A stretch of DNA of 53,564 bases from a virus (lineage: Duplodnaviria; Caudoviricetes): positions 1 through 53,564 of IMG/VR virus record IMGVR_UViG_3300030393_000016, one strand, 5' to 3'. The notes under the pieces were generated by a model. The model was not told where the DNA came from. It did not search any database and was given only the letters and a program-made list of their open reading frames with translations. This document shows, piece by piece, positions 1-12,500 of this stretch. A program made the translations under genes and the position numbers. How positions within the stretch are numbered: position 1 is the stretch's first letter; every line of letters begins with the position of its first letter.

Positions 1-2109
1 ATGAAGTATATCCATTTTTTATTACTTATTACTTTAATAAGCTGTAAGGGTCAAAACACAAAATCGTTAGATGATAAACATACTAATGATCTTATACATG
101 AAACTAGCCCTTACTTATTACAACATGCTCATAATCCTGTAAACTGGAATGCTTGGAATGATGAAGTTTTGGCTAAGGCTAAAACTGAAAACAAACTTAT
201 ACTTATTAGTGTTGGTTATTCTGCTTGTCATTGGTGTCATGTTATGGAACATGAGAGCTTCGAAGATATATCGGTCGCGAAGGTTATGAATGATAACTTT
301 ATTAATATAAAGGTAGATCGAGAGGAACGCCCAGATGTAGACAAGGTATACATGAATGCGGTACAACTTATGACTGGTAGTGGTGGTTGGCCTATGAATG
401 TTATAGCTTTACCTGACGGGAGACCTATTTGGGGTGGTACTTATTTTAGAAAAAAGGAATGGGTTAGTGCTTTAAATCAGATATCGAAAGTATATACTGA
501 AGATCCTGATACATTATATGAGTATGCTGATAAATTAGAGCAAGGTATTAAATCGTTAGATATTGTTCAACTAAATACTAATGAACCCGTTTTTAATAAA
601 GGCTTTATAAAGAGTACTGTTAAAAAATGGTCTAGACATTTTGACCCTAATAATGGTGGTACTAATAGAGCTCCTAAGTTTATGATGCCTAATAATCTTC
701 ATTTTTTATTGCGATATGCTTACCAGACTAATGACGTTAAATTGCAAAATTATGTAAACTTAACACTTACAAAAATTGCTTATGGTGGTGTTTTTGACCA
801 AATTGGCGGCGGATTTTCTAGATATTCTGTTGATAATAAGTGGCATGTACCACATTTTGAGAAAATGTTGTACGATAATGGTCAGTTAGTGAGTTTATAT
901 GCCGACGCTTATCTTATTACAAAAAACAAACTATATAAAGATGTTGTTATTGAGACTTTAAAATATGCTAAACGAAACATGACTACCGATAATGGGGCTT
1001 TTTATTCATCATTAGATGCTGATAGCAATAACACTGATGGTAATCTTGAAGAAGGGGCTTTTTATGTTTGGAATAAAGTTCAATTAAAGCATATTTTAGG
1101 CGAAGAAGATTTTAAAATTTTTAAAGATTACTATAACATTAATAATTACGGACATTGGGAACATGGTAAATATGTACTTATCAGGAAGGATGACGATGCT
1201 TCGATTATTAAGAAGCACAATATAACAAGTGTTGTTTTAGCTGAAAAGAAAGCAAAATGGAAAAACACCTTATTAAAGGAGCGTAATAAACGAGATCACC
1301 CTCGACTGGACGATAAAACCTTAACTTCTTGGAATGCTTTAATGCTTAAAGGCTATATTGATGCATATAGAGTTTTGGGTGATAAAGATTATTTAGCTGC
1401 CGCTAAAAAGAATGCTGACTTTATTATTAATAATCAATTACGAAAAAATGGTGGCTTAAACCATAGTTATAAAAATGGTAAAAGCACTGTTAATGGCTAT
1501 CTAGAAGATTATGCTACTACCATAGATGCTTTTATAGCGTTATATGAAAATACTCTCGATGAAAAATGGCTTACTACAGCTAGAGATTTAGCTACTTATA
1601 CCTTTAATCATTTTTATGATGAGAACAATAAGATGTTTTACTTTACTTCTAGCCAAGATAAATCTTTAATATCTAGAAATATGGAGTACAGAGATAATGT
1701 TATTCCTGCTAGTAATTCTATAATGGCTAAAAATTTATTTAAGCTATCTCATTATTTTGATGACAAACACTTCTCTGAAACGGCCATGACCATGCTTAAT
1801 AATGTAAAGCCCGAAATACAAAAGTATCCTTCAGGCTATTCTAACTGGTTAGACTTGATGCTAAATTACACAAACCCTTATTATGAAGTAGCTATTGTAG
1901 GGAATAATGCACAGCAAAAACTGGCAGCTTTAAACAGAACATATATACCTAATAAGTTAATTGTAGGTAGTACCATTGCTAACGACAAACTGCCATTATT
2001 ACAAAACAGGTATGACCCTAACAAAACACTTATATATGTATGTGTAAATAAAGCTTGCAAAATACCTGTTGAAGATGTAAACAAAGCTATTTTACTTTTA
2101 AATGAATAA
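1..2109 (+). CDS. yyaL: Thioredoxin-domain / glycosidase-like barrel protein (YyaL, SPATA20 family), probably a lipoprotein; host gene
   Basis: 702-aa ORF with [39 protein letters not shown] and [10 protein letters not shown] motifs; N-terminal LISC lipobox. Confidence 0.9.
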
Positions 2110-2143
2110 CCTCAGCGCTAACAACACCTATATATTATAATAC

Positions 2144-2170
2144 AAAAAGCCTGCATTGCTGCAGGCTTTT
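2144..2170. terminator. Bidirectional intrinsic terminator downstream of yyaL
   Basis: AAAAAGCCTGCA-TTGC-TGCAGGCTTTT. Confidence 0.8.
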
Positions 2171-2213
2171 CCATCCAACTAAAAAATTATTAGAAATAAC
2201 TCCCGTTATTCCT
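2144..2213 (-). ncRNA. Putative small RNA, copy 1 (promoter, ~70 nt, intrinsic terminator)
   Basis: Minus-strand TAATTTAG (-7-like) at 2218-2225; conserved core TAATTTTTTAGTTGGATG; hairpin AAAAGCCTGC..GCAGGCTTTT at 2145-2170; no ORF; paralogous to copy 2. Confidence 0.55.
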
Positions 2214-2255
2214 ATTGCTAAATTACATTTTAATACTACCCTGCCCCTTGTATAT

Positions 2256-2307
2256 CGAGTAACGGAATACTAGTGCAGTTAGATGGTATTAAAGTATCGA
2301 CGAATGG
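2256..2307 (-). promoter_or_regulatory. Three 21-bp-periodic direct repeats (LytTR-type boxes) upstream of sRNA copy 1
   Basis: CGAGTAACGG at 2256, AGTTAGATGG at 2277, CGACGAATGG at 2298. Confidence 0.5.
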
Positions 2308-2380
2308 TTTTATAAAACACATTGTAAAATTCACATCGATGTTATTATCTCTTTACTGCTATGTACTACTATATAAATAG

Positions 2381-2452
2381 AAAAAGCCTGTATTACTACA
2401 GGCTTTTTACATCCAACTAAAAAATTACTAGAAATAGTTTTACTTTATCTCT
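2381..2452 (-). ncRNA. Putative small RNA, copy 2
   Basis: Minus-strand TAATTTAG at 2457-2464; core AGTAATTTTTTAGTTGGATG at 2410-2429; terminator AAAAAGCCTGTA-TTAC-TACAGGCTTTTT at 2381-2408. Confidence 0.55.
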
Positions 2453-2494
2453 GTTGCTAAATTACATTTTAACAACATTTTCTATGTACAATAT

Positions 2495-2547
2495 CAGGCA
2501 ACGGGAATGTTGCTGCCGATAAACGGTATAAAAGTATCGATGAACGG
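2495..2547 (-). promoter_or_regulatory. LytTR-type direct repeats upstream of sRNA copy 2
   Basis: CAGGCAACGG at 2495, CGATAAACGG at 2517, CGATGAACGG at 2538; 21-22-bp period. Confidence 0.55.
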
Positions 2548-2615
2548 TAATCTACTAAGTATACAATTTAGATATTTTTAATACCTTGGCAAACCAATTC
2601 ATTAAATCCAACTAA

Positions 2616-3359
2616 ATGAAAAACAACATATCAAACTATCATAAAATAGATTATAAACCAGCAATAATAATTACTATTATTATCATTATAACTTGTTTTA
2701 TATGGGGTACATTGGTCCTATTACCTCCGATAATTCCTTATTATGATTTCACAAATACTGGTCAACTAGGTGATACCATAGGAGGACTTACCTCTCCGAT
2801 AATTGGTATTGGTGGGGCATTTCTAGTATATGTATCTTTTCAGGCACAATTAAAGGCTAACAAAATGCAATGGGAAGCTTTTAATAAAGAAATTCATAAC
2901 CAAAATGCAGATAGATTTTACAATAAAAACTATGAATCAATAAAAGAATTTAAATCAAATTTAAATAACATAGAATTCTCTTGTCCAACTCCTGATAATA
3001 AAACTAACATAGTTTCAAATCAATACATCAATTATAAAGGATTTGATTCTATATCAATAGTTTCAGCTATAATTAGTGATCAAAATAAAAGCCAAACTGA
3101 AAACATATCCATTAGTACGTACCTTTCAAAACTAAGCTTAATCTTTTTAGATTTAGACCTAACAATTATGTCTATTAATAAAAATAAAGACTTATATACA
3201 GATGAATGTAAAGAATTAAAAGAAATTATAGCCTATATTAAAAGGTATCATTTAAACCTTTATTTTCATAATCTACTTGAGGAGCTTGAAGATGATAACT
3301 CATTTAAAGAATACATTTCCAAAATCTATAGTAGTATTGAAAATTGGGTAGCTAATTAA
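2616..3359 (+). CDS. Two-TM membrane protein with the N-terminal signature of putative phage abortive-infection-type proteins
   Basis: TM, then GQLGDTIGGLTSPIIG, TM, FQAQLKANKMQ coiled stretch. Confidence 0.55.
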   Translation: MKNNISNYHKIDYKPAIIITIIIIITCFIWGTLVLLPPIIPYYDFTNTGQLGDTIGGLTSPIIGIGGAFLVYVSFQAQLKANKMQWEAFNKEIHNQNADRFYNKNYESIKEFKSNLNNIEFSCPTPDNKTNIVSNQYINYKGFDSISIVSAIISDQNKSQTENISISTYLSKLSLIFLDLDLTIMSINKNKDLYTDECKELKEIIAYIKRYHLNLYFHNLLEELEDDNSFKEYISKIYSSIENWVAN

Positions 3360-3373
3360 ACACTCTAAAAAAC

Positions 3374-3403
3374 AAAAAAGCCCTACGAAAAAATCGTAGG
3401 GCT
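3374..3403. terminator. Intrinsic terminator downstream of the tRNA-His locus (minus strand)
   Basis: AAAAAAGCCCTACGA-AAAAA-TCGTAGGGCT. Confidence 0.75.
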
Positions 3404-3404
3404 G

Positions 3405-3450
3405 AAAGGGTGAAAGAGGGGTCTCGAACCCCCGACCTTCGGTACCACAA
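3405..3450 (-). repeat. att core copy 1: 3' half of tRNA-His(GTG)
   Basis: Reverse complement reads TTGTGGTACCGAAGGTCGGGGGTTCGAGACCCCTCTTTCACCC (anticodon loop, T-arm, acceptor 3' strand); identical to 6893-6938; 5' half absent. Confidence 0.9.
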
Positions 3451-3545
3451 CATAGGCACCTTATTCCCACTACCCTATCAGTCCCTGAAAAACAGAATAT
3501 TACACAATTAATATTATTAATATATTATCTATTTACAATACATTC

Positions 3546-3567
3546 CGTACTGGTTAACGTACTAGTT
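3546..3567. repeat. Putative integrase arm-type sites, left
   Basis: CGTACTGGTT-AA-CGTACTAGTT; 21/22 identical to 6792-6813. Confidence 0.65.
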
Positions 3568-3612
3568 AATTAATAGTAAGTACAGATAACAAATTAAACG
3601 TTTATATTGTAA

Positions 3613-3644
3613 TAATAAAATAGCAAATATTTGCTATTTTATTA
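3613..3644. promoter_or_regulatory. Perfect 32-bp palindrome, candidate operator
   Basis: TAATAAAATAGCAAAT/ATTTGCTATTTTATTA with no loop. Confidence 0.5.
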
Positions 3645-3860
3645 AGTCATTAATTTCAATTTTAATAACTTAGAGAAACTAATTCATTAGATCCAACTAA
3701 ATGAAAAATTATTATCTATCTCCAATGATGGTGCCTTCTTGTACCCGTCTATGTGTTTTAAAGTACTTTAAAATTTATACTACAATGTCTTCTAATTTAT
3801 CCATTAGTATAAATATTATACAATATCCTACTCTATTTTACTAAAATAAAATCACAGAAC

Positions 3861-5438
3861 ATGGAACACACCATCTCAAAAGAACAAAATGACTGGGCAA
3901 ATAAAATTAATGGTGATCCCATTCATATCGAAAATGCAGAAAGTGGCTTAAAAGGTTATTTCTGTATGGGATGTAATAAAGAAATGCAAGCAGTAAAACC
4001 TCGCGAAAAACAATCATATTTCAGACATCATGCTTTTAATGTTGATAAAAGTAATATTGAATGTGTTTATAGTAGTAGAAAGTATCGAGAAAAACTAGCT
4101 GAAGATATTTTACATCGACTAAAAGAACTAAATGTACCTTCTGTTTACAAATACCCTCCTCCTGGAGTGCAGGGAACTCCAAACTTATTAATGAAAAAAA
4201 GTTTAATACAGGCTTCAAAAGTAAAATCTCAACTAACTTTCTATGAAGATAGAAATGGAAATATCCAATATGGTAAAAATCCTGAGATAGAAGACCGTTA
4301 TCTCTTAATACGACCTGATATAACTTTTTTTGATAATGAAAATAATCCTACCCTATTTATTGAATTTGTTATCACTCATAAATTAAACGACGAGAAAAAA
4401 ATTAAATTAAAACGGTTAGGAATTAATACTATCCAAGTTATAATCCCTAAAGTTCCAGAAGAAGAACTAGAAAAAAAAATCAAAGCAACTCTTAACATTA
4501 AATGGGTATATAATGAACTCGAAGCAAACACCAAGTATATATCAACTTCCGAAAGAAAAACAGAGGGAATATCACCAGTTGATGAAGAGCAAAGAAAGCT
4601 TTTTACAGAATCTGTCGATTGCAGATCAGCGCAAATTAAAAATCTTATACGATCAATTAACGGACTCTTGGAATCTCAATCATACAGAAAAGCTGAACAA
4701 CACTTTGAACGAGAAATATCAAGAATTGAGGAGGCTACAGCAAACGAAAAATCAGAATTGGAACAAATGGAAAGGCAACTTGAGAGAGAAGTGCTTTCAG
4801 AATTTGAAGGAGAAGAACTCAACATTATCCAAAGAAGAAGAAACCTTGAAAAAGAAGAGGACTGGCTTCAACAATACTCTTCAAGAATGGGCAGAAGATA
4901 TAGTAGAAAAAAAGAAGAAATTAGAGGGGAAGAAAAATCACTATCTAAAAATATCAAAACAGCCCTCAAGTCTGAATCAACTGAAGCAGGAATTAGAACA
5001 AAATTTGAATCTGAAAAAGAAAGAATTAGAAGAAGTCTCGAAGAAGAAAGAGAGCGTATTAAGCTCATTAGCGATTATGAAACAGAAAAAATCGAGTTCC
5101 TTAGCCAACTTAAGAGAAACGCTCAAAATGACTTTGAACAACGAAGAAAAGAGCTTGAAAGAGCTAAAGAACAAATTGAATATAAAATCCGAAATTTTGG
5201 AGAAATTCAAAAAGAAGAAGAAAGAAAAATTATCATTGGAGAGGAAGAGTATAGAAAAGAATTTGCTAGACAAATTAATAATAGAGACGCTTCAGGAAAT
5301 CCCGAATTGTCCGAAAGAATTAACCCAATACTTAAAGCTACAAGATTTTTACGCAATTACAATGAAAGAAAAAACACTTTCGAGAGATATCGATCACACC
5401 TTGATATTGTTAGAAAAGGAACTTGGAAGTCATGGTAA
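3861..5438 (+). CDS. CoiA-like Zn-ribbon + PD-(D/E)xK nuclease + long coiled coil
   Basis: YFCMGC..YFRH Zn motif; IRPDITFFD..LFIEFVITH nuclease core; E/K/R-rich C-terminal half. Confidence 0.65.
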   Translation: MEHTISKEQNDWANKINGDPIHIENAESGLKGYFCMGCNKEMQAVKPREKQSYFRHHAFNVDKSNIECVYSSRKYREKLAEDILHRLKELNVPSVYKYPPPGVQGTPNLLMKKSLIQASKVKSQLTFYEDRNGNIQYGKNPEIEDRYLLIRPDITFFDNENNPTLFIEFVITHKLNDEKKIKLKRLGINTIQVIIPKVPEEELEKKIKATLNIKWVYNELEANTKYISTSERKTEGISPVDEEQRKLFTESVDCRSAQIKNLIRSINGLLESQSYRKAEQHFEREISRIEEATANEKSELEQMERQLEREVLSEFEGEELNIIQRRRNLEKEEDWLQQYSSRMGRRYSRKKEEIRGEEKSLSKNIKTALKSESTEAGIRTKFESEKERIRRSLEEERERIKLISDYETEKIEFLSQLKRNAQNDFEQRRKELERAKEQIEYKIRNFGEIQKEEERKIIIGEEEYRKEFARQINNRDASGNPELSERINPILKATRFLRNYNERKNTFERYRSHLDIVRKGTWKSW

Positions 5439-5478
5439 AGATTACAAATGGTTCTGTGAAAATATAGAATCTAATTAA
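4513..5478 (+). CDS. Overlapping +1-frame coiled-coil ORF, probably real (frame open from 4471)
   Basis: 321 stop-free codons in AT-rich DNA; helical K/E/L composition; main-frame codon choice avoids creating stops in this frame. Confidence 0.5.
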   Translation: MNSKQTPSIYQLPKEKQREYHQLMKSKESFLQNLSIADQRKLKILYDQLTDSWNLNHTEKLNNTLNEKYQELRRLQQTKNQNWNKWKGNLREKCFQNLKEKNSTLSKEEETLKKKRTGFNNTLQEWAEDIVEKKKKLEGKKNHYLKISKQPSSLNQLKQELEQNLNLKKKELEEVSKKKESVLSSLAIMKQKKSSSLANLRETLKMTLNNEEKSLKELKNKLNIKSEILEKFKKKKKEKLSLERKSIEKNLLDKLIIETLQEIPNCPKELTQYLKLQDFYAITMKEKTLSRDIDHTLILLEKELGSHGKDYKWFCENIESN

Positions 5479-5489
5479 TAATATACCCT

Positions 5490-5545
5490 CTACATATATA
5501 AAATAGTAAAAGTTGCCAAGTAGCAACTTTTATTATTTTATGTAG
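5490..5545. terminator. Long hairpin, bidirectional terminator between convergent genes
   Basis: TAAAATAGTAAAAGTTGC-CAAGTA-GCAACTTTTATTATTTTA. Confidence 0.7.
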
Positions 5546-5548
5546 GAC

Positions 5549-6292
5549 CTATTCAAAACTATAATTAGCTTCATCTGCAGAGATCCCACCATCAGACAAT
5601 CCTGGTCCATTTTTTGACCTTCTCGGGTAACCATGCGCTCTAGGTGTTCTAGATACCTCATCACTCCTATCTGAATAAAGAGGGTTGCCTTTTAAACTTT
5701 GATTGGCTACAAATTTTAAGGTATTAACATTAGATCTAGTTAAATTAAGAAGTTCTTCTAATAGCTCTCTATCTGGTCTTTCTATAGATTCTGTTTTTTC
5801 TGTATTATTACTTTCTTTAATAATTTTTTCAATACTATCTTTTAATTCTGGAAAAGATCTTTCAAATGTCTTATTAAAAATTTCATCCGAAATACGTGCT
5901 TCTCCCAATTGAATATTAACTGTTCTTAAAAGTATTTTAAAATCTTCTTTATCAAAATCAGTAAGTTGAAACATACTAGTAGGTCCTTTTACTTGTGCTT
6001 TACTTACATTAAACAACAATGGACATACTCTTGCTTGATCCAACCTATTAGATAATGCACCTGCTTCAAAATGAAGCCAGGGACTATCTAAATTTTCGGG
6101 TGTTAAACAAATAATACCTATGGTACTCTCTTCTAGTTTTTTTGAAATATCACTTTGCCACTTATTACCCTTCTCAATATCATCTGGTGTAAAATATGGT
6201 TTTACTGCTTGTAAAACACTTGGTAGCCACCCCTTTAAAACCTTTGCTATTTCTTTACTAGTATTACCTGACCAACTTATAAATATCTTCAT
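5549..6292 (-). CDS. TIR-domain protein
   Basis: MKIFISWSG..DIEKGNKW..GIICLTPENLDSPWLHFEAGAL; catalytic Glu retained. Confidence 0.85.
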   Translation of the reverse strand: MKIFISWSGNTSKEIAKVLKGWLPSVLQAVKPYFTPDDIEKGNKWQSDISKKLEESTIGIICLTPENLDSPWLHFEAGALSNRLDQARVCPLLFNVSKAQVKGPTSMFQLTDFDKEDFKILLRTVNIQLGEARISDEIFNKTFERSFPELKDSIEKIIKESNNTEKTESIERPDRELLEELLNLTRSNVNTLKFVANQSLKGNPLYSDRSDEVSRTPRAHGYPRRSKNGPGLSDGGISADEANYSFE

Positions 6293-6791
6293 TTTTTATT
6301 TCCTATTTTAGACTTAATCAAAGATATTTTTAGACGAATCATTAGTTCCCAATATATTATTCCACTTGACTATGTAATTTAAATGTTCTGTATTCATAAT
6401 TACTTAATAATTAAATTTAGTTGTGTACAATTTAACACTTTAGATTAAACCTTAAAAGCTAATCTTAATAATAATTGTACAACATACTTTAATACTAATT
6501 ATGATAGTTACTTTGCCATCTATAGTTTGAATGAAGACTTAAACATTCTTTCTTAACGGCATTCGGGTTACCTATCCAAGAGTCGTTTACAATTAAAAAA
6601 CGTAAAAACTTATTAATCAAATATATACGCTTTAAATAAATACTGAAAATTAACTAAAAATCTATCTCTAATTTCCTAGGCTGTAAAATGGTTACAGAGT
6701 TCTGTATATTTCTTTATCTTTTGAAAAACAAATGATTACAAAAAAACATTGATTAATACTTCTTTTATTTTATTTAAAATAGACCTTTCAA

Positions 6792-6813
6792 CGTACTGGT
6801 TAACGTACTGGTT
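6792..6813. repeat. Putative integrase arm-type sites, right
   Basis: CGTACTGGTT-AA-CGTACTGGTT, 80 bp from att core 2. Confidence 0.65.
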
Positions 6814-6844
6814 TTAAAAGGTACATACTTAACCATTGAGCATA

Positions 6845-6882
6845 AAAAAAAGCTAAAGCCCAGTAAACACTGAGCTTTAGCT
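6845..6882 (-). terminator. Hairpin/terminator supplied by the islet just downstream of the tRNA 3' end
   Basis: AAAAAAAGCTAAAGC-CCAGTAAACACTGA-GCTTTAGCT. Confidence 0.6.
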
Positions 6883-6892
6883 AACATTTTTA

Positions 6893-6938
6893 AAAGGGTG
6901 AAAGAGGGGTCTCGAACCCCCGACCTTCGGTACCACAA
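6893..6938 (-). repeat. att core copy 2: 3' half of tRNA-His(GTG); left boundary of the prophage
   Basis: Identical to 3405-3450. Confidence 0.9.
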
Positions 6939-6976
6939 AATAGATGCCCTACTCTCACTATTGTAAAGTTTTTGAT

Positions 6977-7101
6977 TATCAAGTAATTACATTTAAGCCA
7001 AATTTGAAATTTATACTGTTTTTTTATATTACATTACCTTTTACATTGTCGTTTTTGAGTGTATATTTTAGTATGATATTTCGCAGATAATCAAGTATTT
7101 A
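6977..7101. promoter_or_regulatory. Two IHF-consensus-like sites in the prophage att arm
   Basis: TATCAAGTAATTA at 6977-6989 and AATCAAGTATTTA at 7089-7101 match WATCAANNNNTTR. Confidence 0.4.
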
Positions 7102-7130
7102 AATTAAAACTAATAGCAACTAAAACATTG

Positions 7131-7466
7131 CTAGTCTTCACTCAAATACTTCAAAACCGCATTACGAGTAGCTTCGTCTTTTTTAAGGTGTTTGGCTAGT
7201 TGTAAGCTAAAGTCGTCTAGCCCTGTGGCAGCTTCATTATTAATTTCCATAACACCACGACCGTGCAGTAGCCAGTTGGCATTAAGCTCAGGGTAAGCAG
7301 TGGTAACACTCATTACGAGTTTCATGCCTAGTGAACGTGTACCACTTGTAACAGGTATAAGGGTATGGTAGTTTATACCATGTATTTCGGCAAACTCATT
7401 TAATTTATACCCTTTATGGCGTATAAAATACTCCAGCCTCTCTCCTGCTTTATTCAACACCTTCAA
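7131..7466 (-). CDS. XRE-family HTH repressor-like protein
   Basis: ERLEYFIRHKGYKLNEFAE..PELNANWLLHGRGVM, a CI N-terminal pattern. Confidence 0.75.
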   Translation of the reverse strand: MKVLNKAGERLEYFIRHKGYKLNEFAEIHGINYHTLIPVTSGTRSLGMKLVMSVTTAYPELNANWLLHGRGVMEINNEAATGLDDFSLQLAKHLKKDEATRNAVLKYLSED

Positions 7467-8130
7467 ATTTTTTATTGATTACATAATCAATATTAATATT
7501 TGATGTTTTGAGAACCTTTATTCTCATGCCTTTAAAACCAATGATATTACTTTCAGATAAATCATACTGTAAGTCTTGTGTAAAAGCAGCTCTAGCCATA
7601 TCATTTACATACTCTCTATAAGTAAATTTTATAGTATTTCCAGAACGTCCGTTGTACATAAACTGTTGCTTAAAATATTCTTTATTTCTATCTAAGTACT
7701 CAGATTCTATATATTCAATAGGAGTCTTTGTTTTATATAATTTTACACCAAAATCATTACTAATAAAAGCTGAAGTTTCACTCCCATCTTTTTTTATAGC
7801 AACTCCATAAGTATACATTGGTTTGTCTTCATCTATAGAATGATATAATGAATAACCCTTTATATCACTCATATGTACAAACATCTGTTTCTTATTTATT
7901 TTATTCTTTGCATGGTATGTTATACTTGCGTCTTCTGATGTTATTACTATCGCATCAAAAAACCTTCCTTCCTCATATTCTACCATGTCCTCTCCAACTT
8001 CCGCCGAGTATTCAACTCCAATTTTATTACCTATATCTTCAATTCTATTTGATGAAATATAGGTTTGTTTTACTCCACATGAAAAAAATAAAAAAAGTGG
8101 TAAAAGAAGTAGCAATTTTAAAAGTTTCAT
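7450..8130 (-). CDS. Lipoprotein in the immunity operon; superinfection-exclusion candidate
   Basis: MKLLKLLLLLPLFLFFSC signal peptide II; beta-rich body. Confidence 0.65.
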   Translation of the reverse strand: MKLLKLLLLLPLFLFFSCGVKQTYISSNRIEDIGNKIGVEYSAEVGEDMVEYEEGRFFDAIVITSEDASITYHAKNKINKKQMFVHMSDIKGYSLYHSIDEDKPMYTYGVAIKKDGSETSAFISNDFGVKLYKTKTPIEYIESEYLDRNKEYFKQQFMYNGRSGNTIKFTYREYVNDMARAAFTQDLQYDLSESNIIGFKGMRIKVLKTSNINIDYVINKKFEGVE

Positions 8131-8157
8131 TAGTTAGTTGGATTGTTTAATTAGTAA

Positions 8158-8505
8158 TTATTTAGTTTTTTTAGTTATTAGTTCTAGTATGCGTTCCTGT
8201 ATATCTTCATCTTCTAAATATCTCATCAACATTTCCTTCCCAGGGTCTGATGTTGATTCTTGTATCACATTAGTATTTTCATTTATGTATAACTTTTTAG
8301 AAGTATCTCCAAAAAGAAGCCAATCCACATCTAAATCAGGGATGCTTTCTTTAAGCTGACGAAGAATATTCATCCCTAAAGCTCTTTCTCCATTAATTAT
8401 ATTGGACATTCCACTATAATTAAGATTATTTTTTTCACAAAACTTCCTTAAGGTAACACCCTGACTACCAATAACTTCCCTTAATCTACTTCCTGTATTA
8501 TCCAT
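8158..8505 (-). CDS. XRE-family HTH prophage repressor (CI-like, no S24 domain)
   Basis: RLREVIGSQGVTLRKFCEKNNLNYSGMSNIING..DVDWLLFG; divergent from the early operon. Confidence 0.8.
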   Translation of the reverse strand: MDNTGSRLREVIGSQGVTLRKFCEKNNLNYSGMSNIINGERALGMNILRQLKESIPDLDVDWLLFGDTSKKLYINENTNVIQESTSDPGKEMLMRYLEDEDIQERILELITKKTK

Positions 8506-8587
8506 ATTTGAATAAAATAATTATTCATATATGTGAATTATATCCATATATGTATTACATTTGTCATGTACAACTTATACAAATATA
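8503..8587. promoter_or_regulatory. Lysis-lysogeny switch region
   Basis: CATATWTG boxes at 8503, 8526 and 8545; rightward TACATTTG at 8556-8563; leftward TATATTTG at 8580-8587. Confidence 0.6.
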
Positions 8588-8661
8588 ATACAATTAGTCT
8601 TTACACAAATAGCAATTAAATGCTATGAGAAGTATCTGCTAAAAATAGAACACAAAATTGT

Positions 8662-8928
8662 ATGATAACACCTGCAATACGAGAGCGCATTAAAACACAT
8701 TTGGGTAGCCATTATATTGACAATGTAATGGAAATATTGAATGAAAAAGGTATCACAAATCGTTTTGGAAACTCTCATAGTGTATCTACTATATCACAGG
8801 TAATGAATCAGCAAAGAAGAAATGCAGATATAGAAAAAGTATTACTTAGTATATATGAAGAAAGTGAAAATGAAATAAAAAAACCCGAGGTGGCCGCCTC
8901 AGGTTTTACACATAAAACTAATCCCTAA
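8662..8928 (+). CDS. Cro-like small DNA-binding protein
   Basis: First early gene; HSVSTISQVMN helix. Confidence 0.55.
   Translation: MITPAIRERIKTHLGSHYIDNVMEILNEKGITNRFGNSHSVSTISQVMNQQRRNADIEKVLLSIYEESENEIKKPEVAASGFTHKTNP
8877..8908 (+). terminator. tR1-like terminator overlapping the 3' end of the Cro-like gene
   Basis: AAAACCCGAGG-TGGCCG-CCTCAGGTTTT. Confidence 0.5.
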
Positions 8929-8939
8929 CGATTAAAATC

Positions 8940-9533
8940 ATGCACAGCAAATCTACAAAAGATAATCAATTTAAGCAAGCTTTTAGTTTGATACCTGGAT
9001 TATTACCTGGCGATCATTCAACCGAATTATTTGGTGATCGAGAAACAAGAAAAGTATATGGAGTAAGCGATGGTAAAACAATTCCATTCTATAACATACC
9101 TCCCACTTTAAAAGCTCAAATTTTTGAGAAAATGCTTAGCGATAAAATCGCCATGCAAGACCTAGAACACCTTCAACATGATGAGGCACTCGAAGAATAT
9201 GCTTTTTGTATTTATGGTGATGCTGATGGTGTGGCTGATTTCACAGAAAATGGCACTAATAATTCATCAGAAAATTTTACCTGCGGAGAAAACTGTAAGT
9301 GTTTAAAATGGAACTCTAAACAAATCTCCATTAATGGTAATAATCTAACTCCAAGAGAGGTACAGGTTACTAAACAATTAGCTAGCGATAAACCTGATAA
9401 GGCTATAGCCGATGAGTTAAAAATCAGCACACACACGCTAACACAGCACAAGCGAAGCTTGTATGAAAAAGCAGGAGTACAAAGTCGTTCAGGACTATTA
9501 GAGAAAGGATACCAACAACGTGTAATACATTAG
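8940..9533 (+). CDS. LuxR-type C-terminal HTH regulator with a Cys cluster
   Basis: LTPREVQVTKQLASDKPDKAIADELKISTHTLTQHKRSLYEK; CGENCKC. Confidence 0.85.
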   Translation: MHSKSTKDNQFKQAFSLIPGLLPGDHSTELFGDRETRKVYGVSDGKTIPFYNIPPTLKAQIFEKMLSDKIAMQDLEHLQHDEALEEYAFCIYGDADGVADFTENGTNNSSENFTCGENCKCLKWNSKQISINGNNLTPREVQVTKQLASDKPDKAIADELKISTHTLTQHKRSLYEKAGVQSRSGLLEKGYQQRVIH

Positions 9534-9535
9534 TT

Positions 9536-9736
9536 ATGGATACATTTTTAATGATACTACACTACGCTGCTACAATTATTTGGATCATAATGATACCCTA
9601 CACGGGCAAATATATACGACTAAGAATAAAAACTAATAGCATTCGCGATGCCTATAGATTAGAAAAACTAATACTGCTATGCTTTGGCCTTTTTGCTATC
9701 TCTTTTATAACCTACATATCAACTTCAACTTTATAA
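9536..9736 (+). CDS. Small two-TM membrane protein
   Basis: Two hydrophobic segments; operonic spacing. Confidence 0.6.
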   Translation: MDTFLMILHYAATIIWIIMIPYTGKYIRLRIKTNSIRDAYRLEKLILLCFGLFAISFITYISTSTL

Positions 9737-9740
9737 TGAT

Positions 9741-10238
9741 ATGAAAGATTTTAGAAAGCAAGAAGAGGAAGCATGGAAAGCTGTTAAAGAACACTATCCC
9801 AACGATTGGCAAAAAATGGTTGCTAATGCTAGAGGAGAAATAAAAAGAACCATTAGGATTAAAAAATATGATGAAACTCCAGAACACACACGTAAAGCCG
9901 TCAGAGAGATTACTCATAACGAAAGCATACTGAATATAAAACCATTAGCATTACTAGCTGCAGCTCATGTAGTAAACTTAGAAAAAGATTTACAGCAACG
10001 CGGTCAAGAATATAATGATAGGGTTTTTAGAATTAATAGAGAATTAAATAAACTAGAAACTATTGACTGGGATGAAAGTCTTAAAATCATTTTAAGAGCT
10101 TTCTATAAAGGTAGGATAGAAAAGATAAATAGATATAGTGAAACTATACTAAATGAAATATTAGAAATAAGACTTCCATTATGTGAAGTTGTAAAAAATA
10201 AATCGAAACCATATATCAATAGGTCATTTAAAGCCTAA
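9741..10238 (+). CDS. Hypothetical phage early protein
   Basis: 165-aa ORF, operonic. Confidence 0.65.
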   Translation: MKDFRKQEEEAWKAVKEHYPNDWQKMVANARGEIKRTIRIKKYDETPEHTRKAVREITHNESILNIKPLALLAAAHVVNLEKDLQQRGQEYNDRVFRINRELNKLETIDWDESLKIILRAFYKGRIEKINRYSETILNEILEIRLPLCEVVKNKSKPYINRSFKA

Positions 10239-10249
10239 TGAATAACAAT

Positions 10250-10335
10250 AGTTTAGTTGAGTAATTTTTTAGTTGGATGAGGCTACAGCAATGTAGTCGC
10301 CCTTACTCTCCCTGTAGCCCATACAGGGAGGGGAT
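10250..10335 (+). ncRNA. Putative structured RNA carrying the host sRNA seed
   Basis: AGTAATTTTTTAGTTGGATG at 10260-10279, followed by hairpins GGCTAC/GTAGTC and CTCCCTGTA/TACAGGGAG. Confidence 0.45.
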
Positions 10336-10363
10336 ATAGGGTTAATCATTAAGTACATTAATT

Positions 10364-10597
10364 ATGAGCAAAGCACAAAGAATAACCCATTTTAAAGAAA
10401 TACTAGCTACTGCAAAAAACTTGCAAGAGGTAGCCAGACAGCAATTAAAATCTGCTACACGTCTCGAAAGTGAAGCAATTTCTGCCCTCGAGGAGCTTGG
10501 GAGTTCCTCTGGGCAGGGTCGCAAGACCGAAGCTCTTACTCCTGAAGAAAAATTAAAATTAATGGCTGGGCTTACAGGAGGTAAAAGCCTAGCATAA
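10364..10597 (+). CDS. Small helical phage protein
   Basis: 77-aa ORF. Confidence 0.6.
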   Translation: MSKAQRITHFKEILATAKNLQEVARQQLKSATRLESEAISALEELGSSSGQGRKTEALTPEEKLKLMAGLTGGKSLA

Positions 10598-10610
10598 CAA
10601 CCACACCACA

Positions 10611-10662
10611 GGCAGGATGCAAATGTATACAGGAGCTACAGGGTTCGAATCCCTTCCTGCCC
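10611..10662 (+). ncRNA. tRNA-like mini-element (acceptor stem + T-arm, no anticodon arm)
   Basis: GGCAGGA...AGGG-TTCGAAT-CCCT-TCCTGCC. Confidence 0.6.
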
Positions 10663-10763
10663 CTAAAACAACACCGGAGGCAAGTAGTACTTGCAATTTA
10701 CCCTAATGCTTGAGGCAGCTTGATAACTGCCTCCGCTGCAGGGAGAAACAACTATTGTTATTT

Positions 10764-12500
10764 ATGAACACACAACGAACCAGTCAAACTACAACAGCTT
10801 TTAACACGGCACAAAATCTTTTCGGGCATGTGTCGCCTAAAGCAGTTGCTAAAGAACCTAAAAAAGATCCTGACTGTTTTAAAGCAGTTTACCCTATGTT
10901 TAATGCTGAGGCATTTAAACTAACGATGGATAATTATAGGCAAAAGGTGAGTGAATATAACACCTCTGTAGAGTGGTTTAATGTAGACGTGTGTAACCAT
11001 AATCAAAACGTTGCTCTTTATTTAAAAAGGAAAGCAACCGACCTGCAAAAAAAGTATGCTGAATATTTCCCTAAGCTCAACAAAGAGCTTTCAATTAAAG
11101 CATACAACGCTGCTGCAGATAAAGCTAATAAAGAGAATGGACCAATAATTCTAAAGAAAGAGTTACAAACAGTAAAACCAAATACTGAACTCTTCTTTCA
11201 GAATTTCATTCATGTCTATAACGGACAACTCGAAAAACACAACAAAGAGTACATCCGCTTTGGTATTAAAACCCCTCGCCCACTACCTCCCATTAAGATC
11301 AATCCGTATTTTATTACGCAATTACAGCGCGCTGAAGGTGTTTTTAGCCTAAAGGTGTGCGCTAGAACTGTACGCAATCATAGAAAGCGATTAGAGGAGG
11401 CTGGAGTACTTGTAAATAGTAATTTTAGAGGACAAAACAGAGCTGTAGAAGTAGAAATTTCCCCCGAAATTTTATTCGTTTATGACGACTTCACACAACA
11501 AATAACATCTCCTGAAAATCAATCGCTTAACTCTTCTGAACGGAAAGAGTTTCCTTATAATAATGATACTACTAGATCATATAAAGAAGAATATAAAGAA
11601 GAGAACGATGCTGTGCAGTCGTTTGTTGATAAGGAGTCGCAAGCGACAACCTCTTCACATTACAAGAACAATTTTTACAAGAGCACCAGAAGCAAGCTAC
11701 AAAATTCACCAGAGGGCGCGCCGAGCGAAAATTTAAAAAAGCCAAAAACATTAAGTGATAATCTACGGGAACAGATACTACATCCGCAGGAACTAGCTGA
11801 ACAACTCACAAATAATGAGTATGATAACCATATCCCTATCGATATAAGGATATTATCAAAAGAAGCTATGTATGGCACAATGCCTAATGAAGAATACAGA
11901 CAGCTGGTGATTCAAGACTTATTCAAGCAATCAGCTAAAATGTGGAGAAACAGTACTCCCTACGTTGGTAGCTGGAAAAATGCAATAAACCACTGGTTAG
12001 AGCTTCGTTTCATGAGCAACATCACGAATAGCGAAAAAGTACCTTGGCATAAAAGCACAATACTCGAGAAGGTAACAGAGTACCGTTGGAGATTAGAGAA
12101 TGCTCGTAGATGGTTCCTGAAATCAAATGTAAAAGTAAAGCCACTCTACCCGTCTGATTATTTCGATACACAACGTAAAACTTCTCGAGAAGTAGGTTTT
12201 GAGTTTACAGAGAAGAACTGGAAAGACCATCTAAAATATACAGCCAAGTTACCTGAGAATAAGCGTAATAAGAAACTTGCAGCTGAAGAAAGAAAGCAAC
12301 GATTAAATGATTCTAAAAAACTTGAGCGAGTAATTAATCGTTTCATAAAAGAGAAAATAACTCTCGATCAACTCATCGAGTATGTACAGCATAATTTGCC
12401 AGAGCAATACTATGATGAACTCCCGAAAACATTACAACAAAAAATGGCCACTGGTGCATTGCCTCCAGGAATAAATATAGTAATCCCTAACAATTATTAA
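10764..12500 (+). CDS. Phage replication initiator-like protein with HTH
   Basis: VCARTVRNHRKRLEEAGVL wHTH, low-complexity linker, early-operon position; ATG at 10764 preferred over TTG at 10710. Confidence 0.6.
   Translation: MNTQRTSQTTTAFNTAQNLFGHVSPKAVAKEPKKDPDCFKAVYPMFNAEAFKLTMDNYRQKVSEYNTSVEWFNVDVCNHNQNVALYLKRKATDLQKKYAEYFPKLNKELSIKAYNAAADKANKENGPIILKKELQTVKPNTELFFQNFIHVYNGQLEKHNKEYIRFGIKTPRPLPPIKINPYFITQLQRAEGVFSLKVCARTVRNHRKRLEEAGVLVNSNFRGQNRAVEVEISPEILFVYDDFTQQITSPENQSLNSSERKEFPYNNDTTRSYKEEYKEENDAVQSFVDKESQATTSSHYKNNFYKSTRSKLQNSPEGAPSENLKKPKTLSDNLREQILHPQELAEQLTNNEYDNHIPIDIRILSKEAMYGTMPNEEYRQLVIQDLFKQSAKMWRNSTPYVGSWKNAINHWLELRFMSNITNSEKVPWHKSTILEKVTEYRWRLENARRWFLKSNVKVKPLYPSDYFDTQRKTSREVGFEFTEKNWKDHLKYTAKLPENKRNKKLAAEERKQRLNDSKKLERVINRFIKEKITLDQLIEYVQHNLPEQYYDELPKTLQQKMATGALPPGINIVIPNNY

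What the first reader, a model, noticed from the sequence alone, without database searches (positions are those of the whole stretch)
10250..10335. Prophage carries an exact 20-nt copy of the host sRNA core, antisense to start regions of accessory genes
Seen: AGTAATTTTTTAGTTGGATG (10260-10279, in the early transcript, followed by hairpins) equals the reverse complement of 2410-2429 and shares 18 nt with 2172-2189. Its complement ATCCAACTAA lies directly before ATG 2616 (Abi-like gene) and ATG 3701, and 3 nt before the start of the immunity-operon lipoprotein (8134-8143, minus strand). Inference: a UUAGUUGGAU-seed regulon, in which the phage expresses a mimic of a host sRNA on induction to silence its own exclusion lipoprotein and neighbouring defence genes. 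It could instead be a decoy for an RNA-binding protein.
Basis: partly seen in the sequence, partly recalled or inferred. Interest (0 to 1): 0.78.

Follow-up and report, generated by a model that had tools for sequence, protein, structure and literature searches.

The report
Prophage copy of a host sRNA
A prophage in a flavobacterial genome carries, inside its early operon, the invariant pairing segment of a small-RNA family that the host also encodes, and the matching target sequence sits just before the start codons of about ten envelope-protein genes, one of them the phage's own, so a phage-made mimic of a host regulator is a testable idea.

Summary
The 20-mer at 10260-10279 equals the reverse complement of 2410-2429, and no shuffle gave three matches.

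The host element is a real, undescribed sRNA family:
- It has a covarying 5' hairpin, a linker, the invariant core UAAUUUUUUAGUUGGAUG and an intrinsic terminator.
- It has no Rfam match.
- It occurs in a small set of Flavobacterium-type genomes, usually just downstream of one orthologous ~670-aa secreted-protein gene.

The prophage (tRNA-His, 6961 to about 53690) keeps linker, core and a first hairpin in the first intergenic gap of its early operon. It lacks the 5' hairpin and the U-tract.

The complement ATCCAACTAA lies 0-32 nt before ATG-ORFs at 11 of 15 non-sRNA sites. It ranks 5th of 30,253 upstream 10-mers.

Best reading (about 0.45): an operon-embedded seed copy that represses these mRNAs in trans.

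Weak points: no expression data, lower predicted seed accessibility, no second phage example, and no enrichment by exact search in five other genomes. The 'Abi-like' and 'exclusion' labels are unsupported.

The parts
10240..10279 (+). Phage-borne copy of the sRNA linker and invariant core. The core TAATTTTTTAGTTGGATG is at 10262-10279; the 20-nt exact identity to 2410-2429 is at 10260-10279. It is preceded by a second TTTAGTTGAG motif. It starts 2 nt after the stop codon of ORF 9741-10238.
   Evidence: 40 nt, 78% to 2172-2211; 31.3 bits with model R1
10281..10298 (+). Hairpin 1 of the phage element: 7-bp stem and GCAA loop, resembling the terminator hairpin of host copy 1. No U-tract follows it.
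   Evidence: (downstream similarity to host copy 1 reached by 4 of 300 shuffles)
10306..10332 (+). Hairpin 2 of the phage element: 11-bp stem and 5-nt loop, with no U-tract. An alternative pairing of 10281-10288 with 10313-10320 is possible.
2144..2215 (-). Host sRNA copy 1: 5' hairpin, core at 2172-2189, terminator hairpin at 2149-2166 plus a U-run.
   Evidence: 29.7 bits
2381..2453 (-). Host sRNA copy 2: 5' hairpin, core at 2410-2427, terminator at 2381-2408. The unit is colinear with copy 1 over about 170 nt, including a conserved promoter-like TTAAAATGTAATTTAGCAA.
   Evidence: (36.6 bits)
2606..2615 (+). Seed complement ATCCAACTAA directly before ATG 2616 (247-aa membrane-type ORF, transcribed divergently from sRNA copy 2).
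3691..3700 (+). Seed complement directly before ATG 3701 (47-aa ORF followed by the 525-aa ORF 3861-5438). The upstream 50 nt are 82% identical to those of 2616, so this is not an independent site.
   Evidence: (D6)
8134..8143 (-). Seed complement 3 nt before the ATG of the prophage lipoprotein gene, in the 27-nt gap after the repressor-like gene.
7450..8130 (-). Prophage lipoprotein gene (226 aa, lipobox LFFSCG, phrog_1353 of unknown function), lying between two HTH genes of the leftward lysogeny module (7131-7466 and 8158-8505).
8662..10597 (+). Rightward early operon: ORFs 8662-8928, 8940-9533 (LuxR/GerE HTH), 9536-9736 and 9741-10238, then a 125-nt gap holding the element, then ORF 10364-10597. 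No terminator-like site is called on the + strand.
6893..6960 (-). 3' fragment of tRNA-His, taken as attL of the prophage. A second copy lies at 3405-3472. The intact tRNA-His lies just past the window end (contig C12:53939-54013), next to the integrase gene 52281-53564.
   Evidence: (D3)

Best explanation
The prophage carries a stripped-down paralogue of a host trans-acting sRNA. It keeps the linker, the invariant single-stranded core (UAAUUUUUUAGUUGGAUG) and one hairpin, and it sits as a moron-like insert in the first intergenic gap of the early (rightward) operon. Proposed mechanism: when that operon is transcribed, the seed UUAGUUGGAU pairs with AUCCAACUAA, either from the long mRNA or from a processed fragment stabilised by the two downstream hairpins. 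This target lies 0-32 nt upstream of the start codon in about ten mRNAs, mostly for lipoproteins and other envelope proteins. Among them is the phage's own lysogeny-module lipoprotein. Pairing would occlude ribosome binding, so the phage would impose the host sRNA's regulon on its own schedule. Shown here: the sequence identity, the family status of the host RNAs, the position and strand of the phage copy, and the start-codon bias of the complement. Inferred: transcription, processing, pairing in vivo, the direction of regulation and the benefit to the phage.
For: (1) Exact 20-nt identity; 0 of 100 shuffles gave three matches.

(2) The host element is a structured RNA family. All 41 non-phage sequences folded show a 5' hairpin, an unpaired core and a terminator. 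With model R1, 96.6% of cells pair against 84.2% in shuffles (0 of 500 reach the observed value), and 7 of 7 pairs show changes on both sides.

(3) The phage copy scores 31.3 bits with R1. That lies between the two window host copies (36.6 and 29.7) and above core-only chance matches in coding DNA (about 22).

(4) The flanks have diverged while the core is perfect. Upstream similarity is not significant (88 of 300 shuffles reach it); the downstream hairpin is marginal (4 of 300). This argues for retention of the core rather than very recent copying.

(5) The copy has the same sense as the sRNA and lies on the strand of the early genes. The ORFs from 8662 to 10238 are contiguous, and no terminator-like site is called on the + strand.

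(6) Targets. ATCCAACTAA occurs 20 times in the genome, and 5 of these are the sRNA genes read antisense. Of the other 15, 11 lie 0-32 nt before an ATG-ORF. Counting sites within 30 nt of an ORF of at least 80 aa gives 10 of 20, against 292 of 3621 (8%) for 300 permuted 10-mers; none of the 300 reached 10 (maximum 5). The reverse-complement orientation gave 1 of 20.

(7) An unbiased ranking places the motif 5th of 30,253 10-mers with at least 3 G/C in -40..+3 of 2,235 predicted starts. Three of the four ranked above it (AACTACAACA is the exception) and most of those next to it are variants of the TAnnTTTG promoter box.

(8) The products are mostly envelope proteins. Six have lipoboxes. Others carry Amidase_3, SH3_3 or LRR domains.

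(9) One target family was traced in other genomes. Orthologues of the 337-aa lipoprotein carry AUCCAAUUAA (the single change keeps a G.U pair) in the sRNA-bearing G402 and CCAAUUAA in the sRNA-bearing G451. No such element was seen in 28 genomes without the sRNA.

(10) A homologue of the downstream 77-aa gene in a second prophage of the same genome has no such intergenic insert.
Against: - No expression data are available.
- The phage copy lacks the family's 5' hairpin (only a 4-bp stem), the U-tract and a recognisable TAnnTTTG promoter.
- The predicted probability that the 10-nt seed is unpaired is 0.22-0.33 in phage contexts, against 0.48-0.78 in the four host copies.
- The duplex-energy scan of 2,235 start regions with the 25-nt conserved region is only weakly enriched: 13 windows at or below -17 kcal/mol against a mean of 5.7, reached by 2 of 33 shuffles; at -18 or below, 7 against 2.9, reached by 4 of 33.
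- In five other sRNA-bearing genomes, exact searches show no excess of the motif before ATG(AA): 2 matches against 3 controls, and 0-2 non-sRNA sites per genome. The overall motif counts are mixed.
- The sRNA-bearing G405 orthologue lacks the site.
- Several of the 11 sites are paralogous duplicates (2616/3701; the contig C16 genes), so independent sites number about 8-9.
- The genomes compared in point 9 are related, so co-occurrence may reflect shared ancestry.
- No second phage carries the element, so its conservation in phages cannot be tested.
Confidence: 0.45

Rival explanations
1. The element is a captured remnant. A host sRNA gene, or its 3' part, was picked up by illegitimate recombination. 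It now serves at most as a structural or stabilising intergenic element, and the core has no trans-acting role in the phage.
For: It lacks the 5' hairpin, the U-tract and a promoter. Predicted seed accessibility is low. It is unique to this prophage: no copy was found in 50,697 GenBank phage records, the one IMG/VR hit lies in coding DNA, and none of the 89 genome loci or 104 metagenome loci with the core lies near homologues of this prophage. Host copies lie only 8 kb away and could act as donors.
Against: The flanks are diverged while 20-24 nt are perfect. At the 22% divergence of the 40-nt match, twenty unchanged positions in a row would be unlikely without selection (my estimate, not a formal test). 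The phage linker and core fit the family consensus rather than only the neighbouring copies. The phage's own lipoprotein leader carries the complement.
Confidence: 0.2
2. The invariant U-rich core (UUUUAG-UAA-UUUUUUAG-UUGGAUG) is mainly a binding site for a host RNA-binding protein or nuclease. The phage copy would then act in cis, to stabilise or process the early transcript, or as a decoy that titrates that factor.
For: The core is invariant over 18-25 nt across species, yet no conserved target set was found by exact search in five other genomes. The UUUAG repeats are kept in the phage copy. Multi-copy tandem arrays are also typical of protein-sequestering RNAs; that comparison is recalled, not tested.
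Against: A protein-site model does not predict that the exact complement ranks 5th of 30,253 upstream 10-mers. Nor does it predict the G.U-compatible change in an orthologous leader. No candidate protein was identified.
Confidence: 0.2
3. The repeat is an integration or recombination scar: an att-site remnant, or the product of an inversion between the 20-nt inverted repeats.
For: The element lies in a hot spot with tandem integrations, and phages often carry 3' ends of small RNA genes in attP (general knowledge).
Against: The prophage's att repeats are tRNA-His fragments, with the integrase beside the intact tRNA. The sRNA copies are inverted rather than direct, and the phage copy lies 3.3 kb inside the element. 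Host copy 2 is colinear with host copy 1 on both sides of the core, so no inversion breakpoint lies at the core.
Confidence: 0.03

Closest known systems
DicF of the E. coli Qin prophage (described in the review PMC12197685; passages read)
   Same: A trans-acting regulatory RNA that is an untranslated part of a prophage operon. It is released from a longer transcript and represses host mRNAs by pairing at the translation start region.
   Different: DicF has no host-encoded sibling with the same seed. It works with Hfq in enterobacteria and ends in a terminator-like structure. Here the phage RNA shares its seed with a host family, has no U-tract, and the host phylum has no characterised Hfq-type partner for it (this last point is from my own knowledge).
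Prophage anti-sRNAs AgvB and AsxR of enterohaemorrhagic E. coli (Tree et al. 2014, PMC4104026, search listing and abstract only; summarised in PMC12197685)
   Same: A phage RNA taps into a host sRNA network through a short stretch of sequence mimicry.
   Different: AgvB mimics the mRNA target and sponges the host sRNA GcvB. The element here has the sense of the sRNA itself, so it would add to the host sRNA rather than antagonise it.
Sibling or multicopy sRNAs with an invariant seed, and 3'UTR-derived sRNAs
   Same: Several tandem or dispersed copies share an invariant single-stranded stretch while the stems vary. Some copies start inside the 3' end of a coding gene.
   Different: This family is from Bacteroidota, is unrelated in sequence, and has no known chaperone. 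Its regulon is only inferred.
Described Bacteroidota sRNAs: GibS of Bacteroides thetaiotaomicron (PMC7366714, search listing and abstract only) and Rfp18 and other Rfp RNAs of Flavobacterium psychrophilum (PMC9723704, passages read)
   Same: Short intergenic RNAs with a hairpin and a terminator, predicted to pair with mRNAs for secreted or surface proteins.
   Different: No sequence relation could be shown. Rfam has no match. The main text of PMC9723704 gives no sequences and its supplements were closed. F. psychrophilum was not among the genomes holding the exact core.
Type I toxin-antitoxin antitoxin RNAs encoded divergently from their target (IstR-1/tisB, OrzO/zorO; recalled)
   Same: Host copy 2 is transcribed divergently from ORF 2616, whose leader holds an 11-nt complement ending at the AUG.
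   Different: ORF 2616 is a 247-aa protein, not a small toxic peptide, and the same seed matches about ten unlinked genes. The only Rfam match to OrzO-P in this region (2335-2409) scored 19.0 bits against a gathering score of 60.

Membership tests
The sRNA family defined here (5' hairpin, linker, UAAUUUUUUAGUUGGAUG core, terminator), asked of the phage copy | Invariant core TAATTTTTTAGTTGGATG preceded by a (G)TTT(T)AG linker | tested here: met
   The core is exact. The linker reads GTTTAG plus an extra TTGAG.
The sRNA family defined here, asked of the phage copy | Stable 5' hairpin (8-12 bp) directly upstream of the linker | tested here: not met
   Only a 4-bp stem is predicted, whereas all 41 other sequences have the hairpin.
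The sRNA family defined here, asked of the phage copy | Intrinsic terminator (GC-rich hairpin plus U-run) within a few nt of the core | tested here: not met
   A hairpin with a GCAA loop is present, but neither hairpin is followed by a U-run, and the scan calls no terminator there.
The sRNA family defined here, asked of the phage copy | Covariance-model score in the range of accepted members | tested here: inconclusive
   31.3 bits. Canonical copies score 46-68, the atypical window host copies 29.7 and 36.6, and core-only chance matches about 22.
The sRNA family defined here, asked of the phage copy | Synteny with the orthologous ~670-aa secreted-protein gene (C-terminal ...VVSKKIMxx*) | tested here: not met
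   The orthologue is present in 27 of 89 genome loci and 27 of 104 metagenome loci, and at the genome's own contig C20 locus. It is absent at the phage copy and at the two window host copies.
The sRNA family defined here, asked of the host elements at 2144-2215 and 2381-2453 | Hairpin, unpaired core and terminator | tested here: met
   The hairpin sequence is atypical and the scores are lower.
Any curated Rfam family | Score at or above the family's gathering threshold | tested here: not met
   0 matches over the whole window. In 2050-3750 all 33 matches with E up to 10 lie far below their gathering scores.
Trans-acting base-pairing sRNA with a start-region regulon | Complement of the seed enriched at translation start regions | tested here: met
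   This genome. It is not seen by exact search in five other genomes.
Trans-acting base-pairing sRNA with a start-region regulon | The RNA is made and changes target expression through pairing | not testable with these tools
   No RNA run was listed. This needs wet-lab work.
Phage anti-sRNA or sponge (AgvB type) | Sequence complementary to the host sRNA seed (a target mimic) | tested here: not met
   The phage copy has the same sense as the sRNA on the transcribed strand.
Prophage att site | Direct repeats flanking the element, next to the integrase | tested here: not met
   The att repeats are tRNA-His fragments. The sRNA copies are inverted, and the phage copy is internal to the prophage.

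The most novel reading that the evidence does not exclude
The sRNA and its AUCCAACUAA leader form a mobile regulatory pair that travels with phages and islands. Three of the genome's five copies and three of its eleven target leaders sit within 8 kb at one tRNA-His integration hot spot. The family is phylogenetically patchy: 0 of 150 other genera sampled, 4 of 101 genomes in one Flavobacterium-type genus, and stray Bacteroidota MAGs. On this reading, the phage- and island-borne copies act as cross-element silencers. They would be antitoxin-like or counter-defence RNAs that shut off membrane and lipoprotein genes of neighbouring elements and of the host surface. This would be the first phage-encoded sRNA mimic in Bacteroidota and a route by which phages spread an sRNA regulon.
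Probability: 0.2. Interest if true: 0.85.

Novelty: new variant of a known kind. Interest (0 to 1): 0.66.

Why it matters
Riboregulation in Bacteroidota is poorly mapped, and the 2025 review of phage-derived sRNAs that I read does not mention the phylum at all (0 occurrences of 'bacteroid').

This locus offers three things at once:
- an undescribed sRNA family with an unusually long invariant stretch, genetically tied to one secreted-protein gene;
- a candidate regulon of lipoprotein and envelope genes marked by the most enriched non-promoter 10-mer upstream of genes in this genome;
- a prophage that carries the seed in its early operon and the target in its lysogeny operon.

If the pairing is real, it shows a phage copying the seed of a host sRNA rather than sponging the sRNA. 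It also gives a compact system for compensatory-mutation tests in a phylum that does not use Shine-Dalgarno-led initiation (this last point is from my own knowledge).

Tried and rejected
- Rfam: no match at gathering scores over the window, and only far sub-threshold matches in 2050-3750.
- tRNA scan of the window: no tRNA gene.
- RNA evidence: no RNA holder was listed for window 2000-11000.
- Earlier findings of this scan: nothing for this genome or sequence. One unrelated tandem-sRNA note came up by words.
- Relatives of the phage region:
  - A DNA search of 401 family genomes gave only chance-level matches outside this genome.
  - ORFs 9741-10238, 10710-12500 and 7450-8130 found no relatives in IMG/VR.
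  - ORF 9741-10238 found none in the metagenome contigs.
- The element in phages: GenBank phage records gave only chance matches with E of 1 or more. The single IMG/VR exact hit lies inside a coding region.
- Window ORFs against the 89 genome loci: no hits. Against the 104 metagenome loci: only weak hits to ORF 38380-40500.
- RNAalifold on the raw MAFFT alignment gave no structure because the stems were out of register. This was solved with a seed model and realignment.
- A first duplex scan timed out. Thresholds of -9 to -13 kcal/mol showed no enrichment, and the tail is only weakly enriched.
- Sister species G173: no canonical copy and no homologue of the flanking DUF255 gene, so synteny across the insertion site could not be read.
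- Pairing of the sRNA with the leader of its linked secreted-protein gene could not be assessed, because the tblastn starts lie inside coding sequence.
- Orthologues of two further targets (364 aa and 274 aa) were not found in the five genomes searched.
- The second motif CTCAACTAA, complementary to the phage-specific TTTAGTTGAG, shows no start-codon association: 14 sites, most of them in coding-like contexts.
- The att-remnant, inversion and chance explanations were rejected.
- Literature: the core and its complement appear in no relevant paper. No paper on prophage-encoded sRNAs in Bacteroidetes was found. The supplements of PMC9723704, which list the Rfp RNA sequences, were closed and might hold a relative.

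Full report
**Observation.** The 20-mer AGTAATTTTTTAGTTGGATG stands at 10260-10279 on the + strand. It recurs on the minus strand exactly at 2410-2429 and with one mismatch at 2172-2191. The three matches compare with a mean of 0.02 in 100 dinucleotide shuffles, and none of the 100 gave three. Two hairpins follow it (10281-10298 and 10306-10332). The 131-nt intergenic stretch folds at -40.2 kcal/mol, z = -3.58. ATCCAACTAA abuts ATG 2616 and ATG 3701, and lies 3 nt before the ATG of the minus-strand ORF 7450-8130.

**What the host element is.** On the minus strand, both host sites read the same way: hairpin, a short linker, TAATTTTTTAGTTGGATG, then a GC-rich hairpin with a U-run. The two units are colinear over about 170 nt, including a fully conserved promoter-like TTAAAATGTAATTTAGCAA. 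The genome (2.5 Mb, 33% G+C, 22 contigs) has two more copies on contig C20.

An exact scan for the 18-mer in one genome per species found 88 stretches.
- 44 core occurrences in them passed a hairpin-plus-T-run filter.
- Nearly all of these come from Flavobacterium-named genomes, plus a few Bacteroidota MAGs, often as 2-3 tandem copies.
- The remaining stretches lie mostly in coding DNA of unrelated taxa.

All 41 non-phage sequences that I folded show a 5' hairpin of about 8-12 bp, an unpaired core and a terminator.

A covariance model built from 15 sequences realigned 82 matches. On that alignment the hairpin pairs in 96.6% of cells, against 84.2% in shuffles (0 of 500 reach the observed value). 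All 7 pairs show changes on both sides, and sliding the partner by 1-3 columns drops pairing to 30-65%. The alignment is fitted to the model, which favours the structure.

Rfam has no match. The core and its complement occur in no relevant paper in the searchable library.

**Distribution and linkage.** The family is narrow and patchy.
- 0 of 150 other genera of the same family matched at E <= 0.001 (strict filters, 40 candidates scored per genome).
- 4 of 101 genomes matched in the genus of one carrier, counting that carrier.
- The sister species has no canonical copy.

In 27 of 89 genome loci and 27 of 104 metagenome loci, the sRNA lies next to an orthologue (39-66% identity) of one ~670-aa ORF. 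That ORF ends in ...VVSKKIMxx*. I read this ending from memory as a type-IX-secretion sorting domain; Pfam gave no hit. In several loci the 5' hairpin starts in the last codons of that gene. The genome's own contig C20 locus is of this kind. The two window copies are not, and they score lower with the model: 36.6 and 29.7 bits, against 50.4 and 47.1 for the C20 copies.

**The phage copy.** The prophage is real.
- It has a tape-measure protein, a methyltransferase and a ParB-like protein.
- Its portal-type protein is 55.7% identical to that of Flavobacterium phage vB_FspS_laban6-1 and 43% to the 6H group.
- An integrase gene lies at 52281-53564, beside an intact tRNA-His just past the window end.
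- tRNA-His 3' fragments lie at 6893-6960 and 3405-3472.

The leftward module holds a repressor-like HTH gene, the lipoprotein gene and a second HTH gene. The rightward ORFs from 8662 to 10238 are contiguous. The element fills the first sizeable gap (10239-10363), and no terminator-like site is called on the + strand.

The copy keeps the linker (GTTTAG plus an extra TTGAG), the exact core, and a first hairpin with the same GCAA loop as host copy 1. It lacks the 5' hairpin and any U-run. Beyond the core, upstream similarity to the host copies is not significant (88 of 300 shuffles reach it). The downstream similarity to host copy 1 is marginal (4 of 300). The copy scores 31.3 bits, about 9 bits above core-only chance matches.

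A homologue of the downstream 77-aa gene in a second prophage of this genome has no such insert. No other phage or prophage was found with the element.

**Targets in this genome.** ATCCAACTAA occurs 20 times. Five occurrences are the sRNA genes read antisense. Of the other 15, 11 lie 0-32 nt upstream of an ATG-ORF. I dropped a twelfth, a low-complexity 74-aa ORF on contig C19, as spurious.

With a fixed rule (an ORF of at least 80 aa within 30 nt), the count is 10 of 20. The opposite orientation gives 1 of 20. The 300 permuted 10-mers give 292 of 3621, and none of them reaches 10; the maximum is 5.

Among the 30,253 with at least 3 G/C, ATCCAACTAA is 5th, found at 9 genes. Three of the four ranked above it (AACTACAACA is the exception) and most of those next to it are variants of the TAnnTTTG promoter box.

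Products:
- six lipoproteins, judged by their lipobox;
- a secreted SH3_3 protein;
- an Amidase_3 protein, which also matches endolysin PHROGs;
- an LRR lipoprotein;
- a membrane-type 247-aa ORF;
- two small ORFs.

Some sites are duplicates. The leaders of 2616 and 3701 are 82% identical over 50 nt, and the contig C16 genes are paralogues. Independent sites therefore number about 8-9. A thermodynamic scan with the whole 25-nt region gives only weak enrichment, because A/U-rich pairings dominate.

**Other genomes.** In five other carriers, exact searches show no excess.
- For ATCCAACTAA N0-20 ATG, most matches are the sRNA genes themselves, leaving 0-2 other sites per genome.
- For TCCAACTAA N0-25 ATGAA, there are 2 matches against 3 controls.
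- Total motif counts are mixed. After removing sRNA genes, the counts against controls in G401 to G405 are 4 vs 4, 8 vs 0, 7 vs 3, 1 vs 5 and 0 vs 1.

The non-sRNA sites lie before unrelated genes. Exact searches miss G.U pairs, however. Orthologues of the 337-aa contig C16 lipoprotein were found in 31 genomes: 30 and G405. The leader reads AUCCAAUUAA in carrier G402, where the one change keeps a G.U pair. It reads CCAAUUAA in carrier G451. There is nothing comparable in carrier G405 or in the 28 genomes without a match to the sRNA model. These genomes are related, so this is a hint and not a test.

**Mechanism and rivals.** The best reading is a phage-borne seed copy, embedded in the early operon, that pairs with AUCCAACUAA leaders and blocks initiation. 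Its targets would include the phage's own lysogeny-module lipoprotein (confidence 0.45).

Against this reading:
- the missing family features;
- the predicted seed accessibility of 0.22-0.33, against 0.48-0.78 in the host copies;
- the lack of RNA data;
- the absence of a second phage example.

Rivals:
- A captured remnant with no trans role (0.2).
- A protein-binding or decoy role for the U-rich core (0.2). This would fit the long invariance without a conserved regulon, but it does not predict the enrichment of the complement.
- An att or inversion scar (0.03), contradicted by the att mapping and by the colinearity of the two host units.
- Chance, excluded.

ORF 2616 has no Abi, Pfam or PADLOC match. 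The lipoprotein's function is unknown. The only clear defence gene is the TIR-TM gene at 5549-6292 (8.9e-77), which carries no motif.

**Comparison and novelty.** The arrangement works like DicF, an operon-embedded prophage sRNA. It is the mirror image of the EHEC anti-sRNAs, which mimic targets (PMC12197685, passages read; PMC4104026, search listing and abstract only). The host RNAs resemble sibling and 3'UTR-derived sRNA families; that comparison is recalled, not checked. I found no report of a phage-encoded sRNA in Bacteroidota. The supplements of PMC9723704 were closed and might list a related RNA. I rate the finding a new variant of a known kind. The sRNA family itself appears to be new.

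Noticed in passing
window 3405-3472, 6893-6960; contig C12:53939-54013: There are tandem integrations at tRNA-His. Two 68-nt tRNA 3' fragments (90% alike) bound a 3.4-kb island (3473-6892), and the prophage follows. Each fragment is followed on the minus strand by its own terminator-like hairpin (3403-3379 and 6882-6851).
   Followed up: partly
window 5549-6292 (-): This gene matches the PADLOC model TIR-TM strongly (8.9e-77) and also matches phrog_13899. It is a candidate anti-phage gene inside the small island and has no integrase of its own nearby.
   Followed up: partly
contig C20:5362-7377 and 27 genome loci (e.g. L062, L042, L071, L008): The sRNA family is syntenic with one orthologous ~670-700-aa ORF that has no Pfam hit and ends in ...VVSKKIMxx*. 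In several genomes the sRNA's 5' hairpin begins in the last codons, which suggests an origin in that gene's 3' UTR.
   Followed up: partly
contig C20:77517-77560 (-), L091: A 19-20-nt stretch identical to the sRNA core lies antisense in the leader of an 86-aa ORF (ATG at C20:77543). It scores 32.7 bits with the sRNA model but has no terminator. It may be a degenerate antisense copy or an unusually long target site (duplex -25.2 kcal/mol).
   Followed up: partly
L069:1397-1450, L072:6139-6192, L021:22-75, L067:2321-2374, L028:3154-3208, L073:681-735, L015:4891-4942, L044:7811-7859: The covariance model finds sibling copies with altered cores next to canonical ones (for example ...TTTAG-TGGATAC, ...TTGGATAA, ...TTAGATAG). 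UUUAG(U)UGGAU is the best-kept part.
   Followed up: no
contig C16:721-3034 and 8803-9399 (L119): Three lipoprotein genes with the leader motif also share GCTAGCTA about 10-25 nt further upstream. This may be a common regulator site.
   Followed up: no
contig C12:190-234 kb and contig C5:4-6 kb: Further prophage-like regions share terminase-type and integrase homologues (47-85% identity) with the window prophage. Neither matched the sRNA model in the search of the whole genome.
   Followed up: partly
window 8880-8907: A GC-rich hairpin flanked by an A-run and a T-run lies inside the 3' end of the first rightward ORF (8662-8928). The scan calls it only on the minus strand. It could attenuate early transcription upstream of the element.
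   Followed up: no
whole genome, -40..+3 of predicted starts: The most frequent G/C-containing upstream 10-mers are variants of TAnnTTTG followed by C(A), such as TATCTTTGCA and TACTTTTGCA. This fits the Bacteroidota promoter -7 box described in PMC9723704.
   Followed up: no
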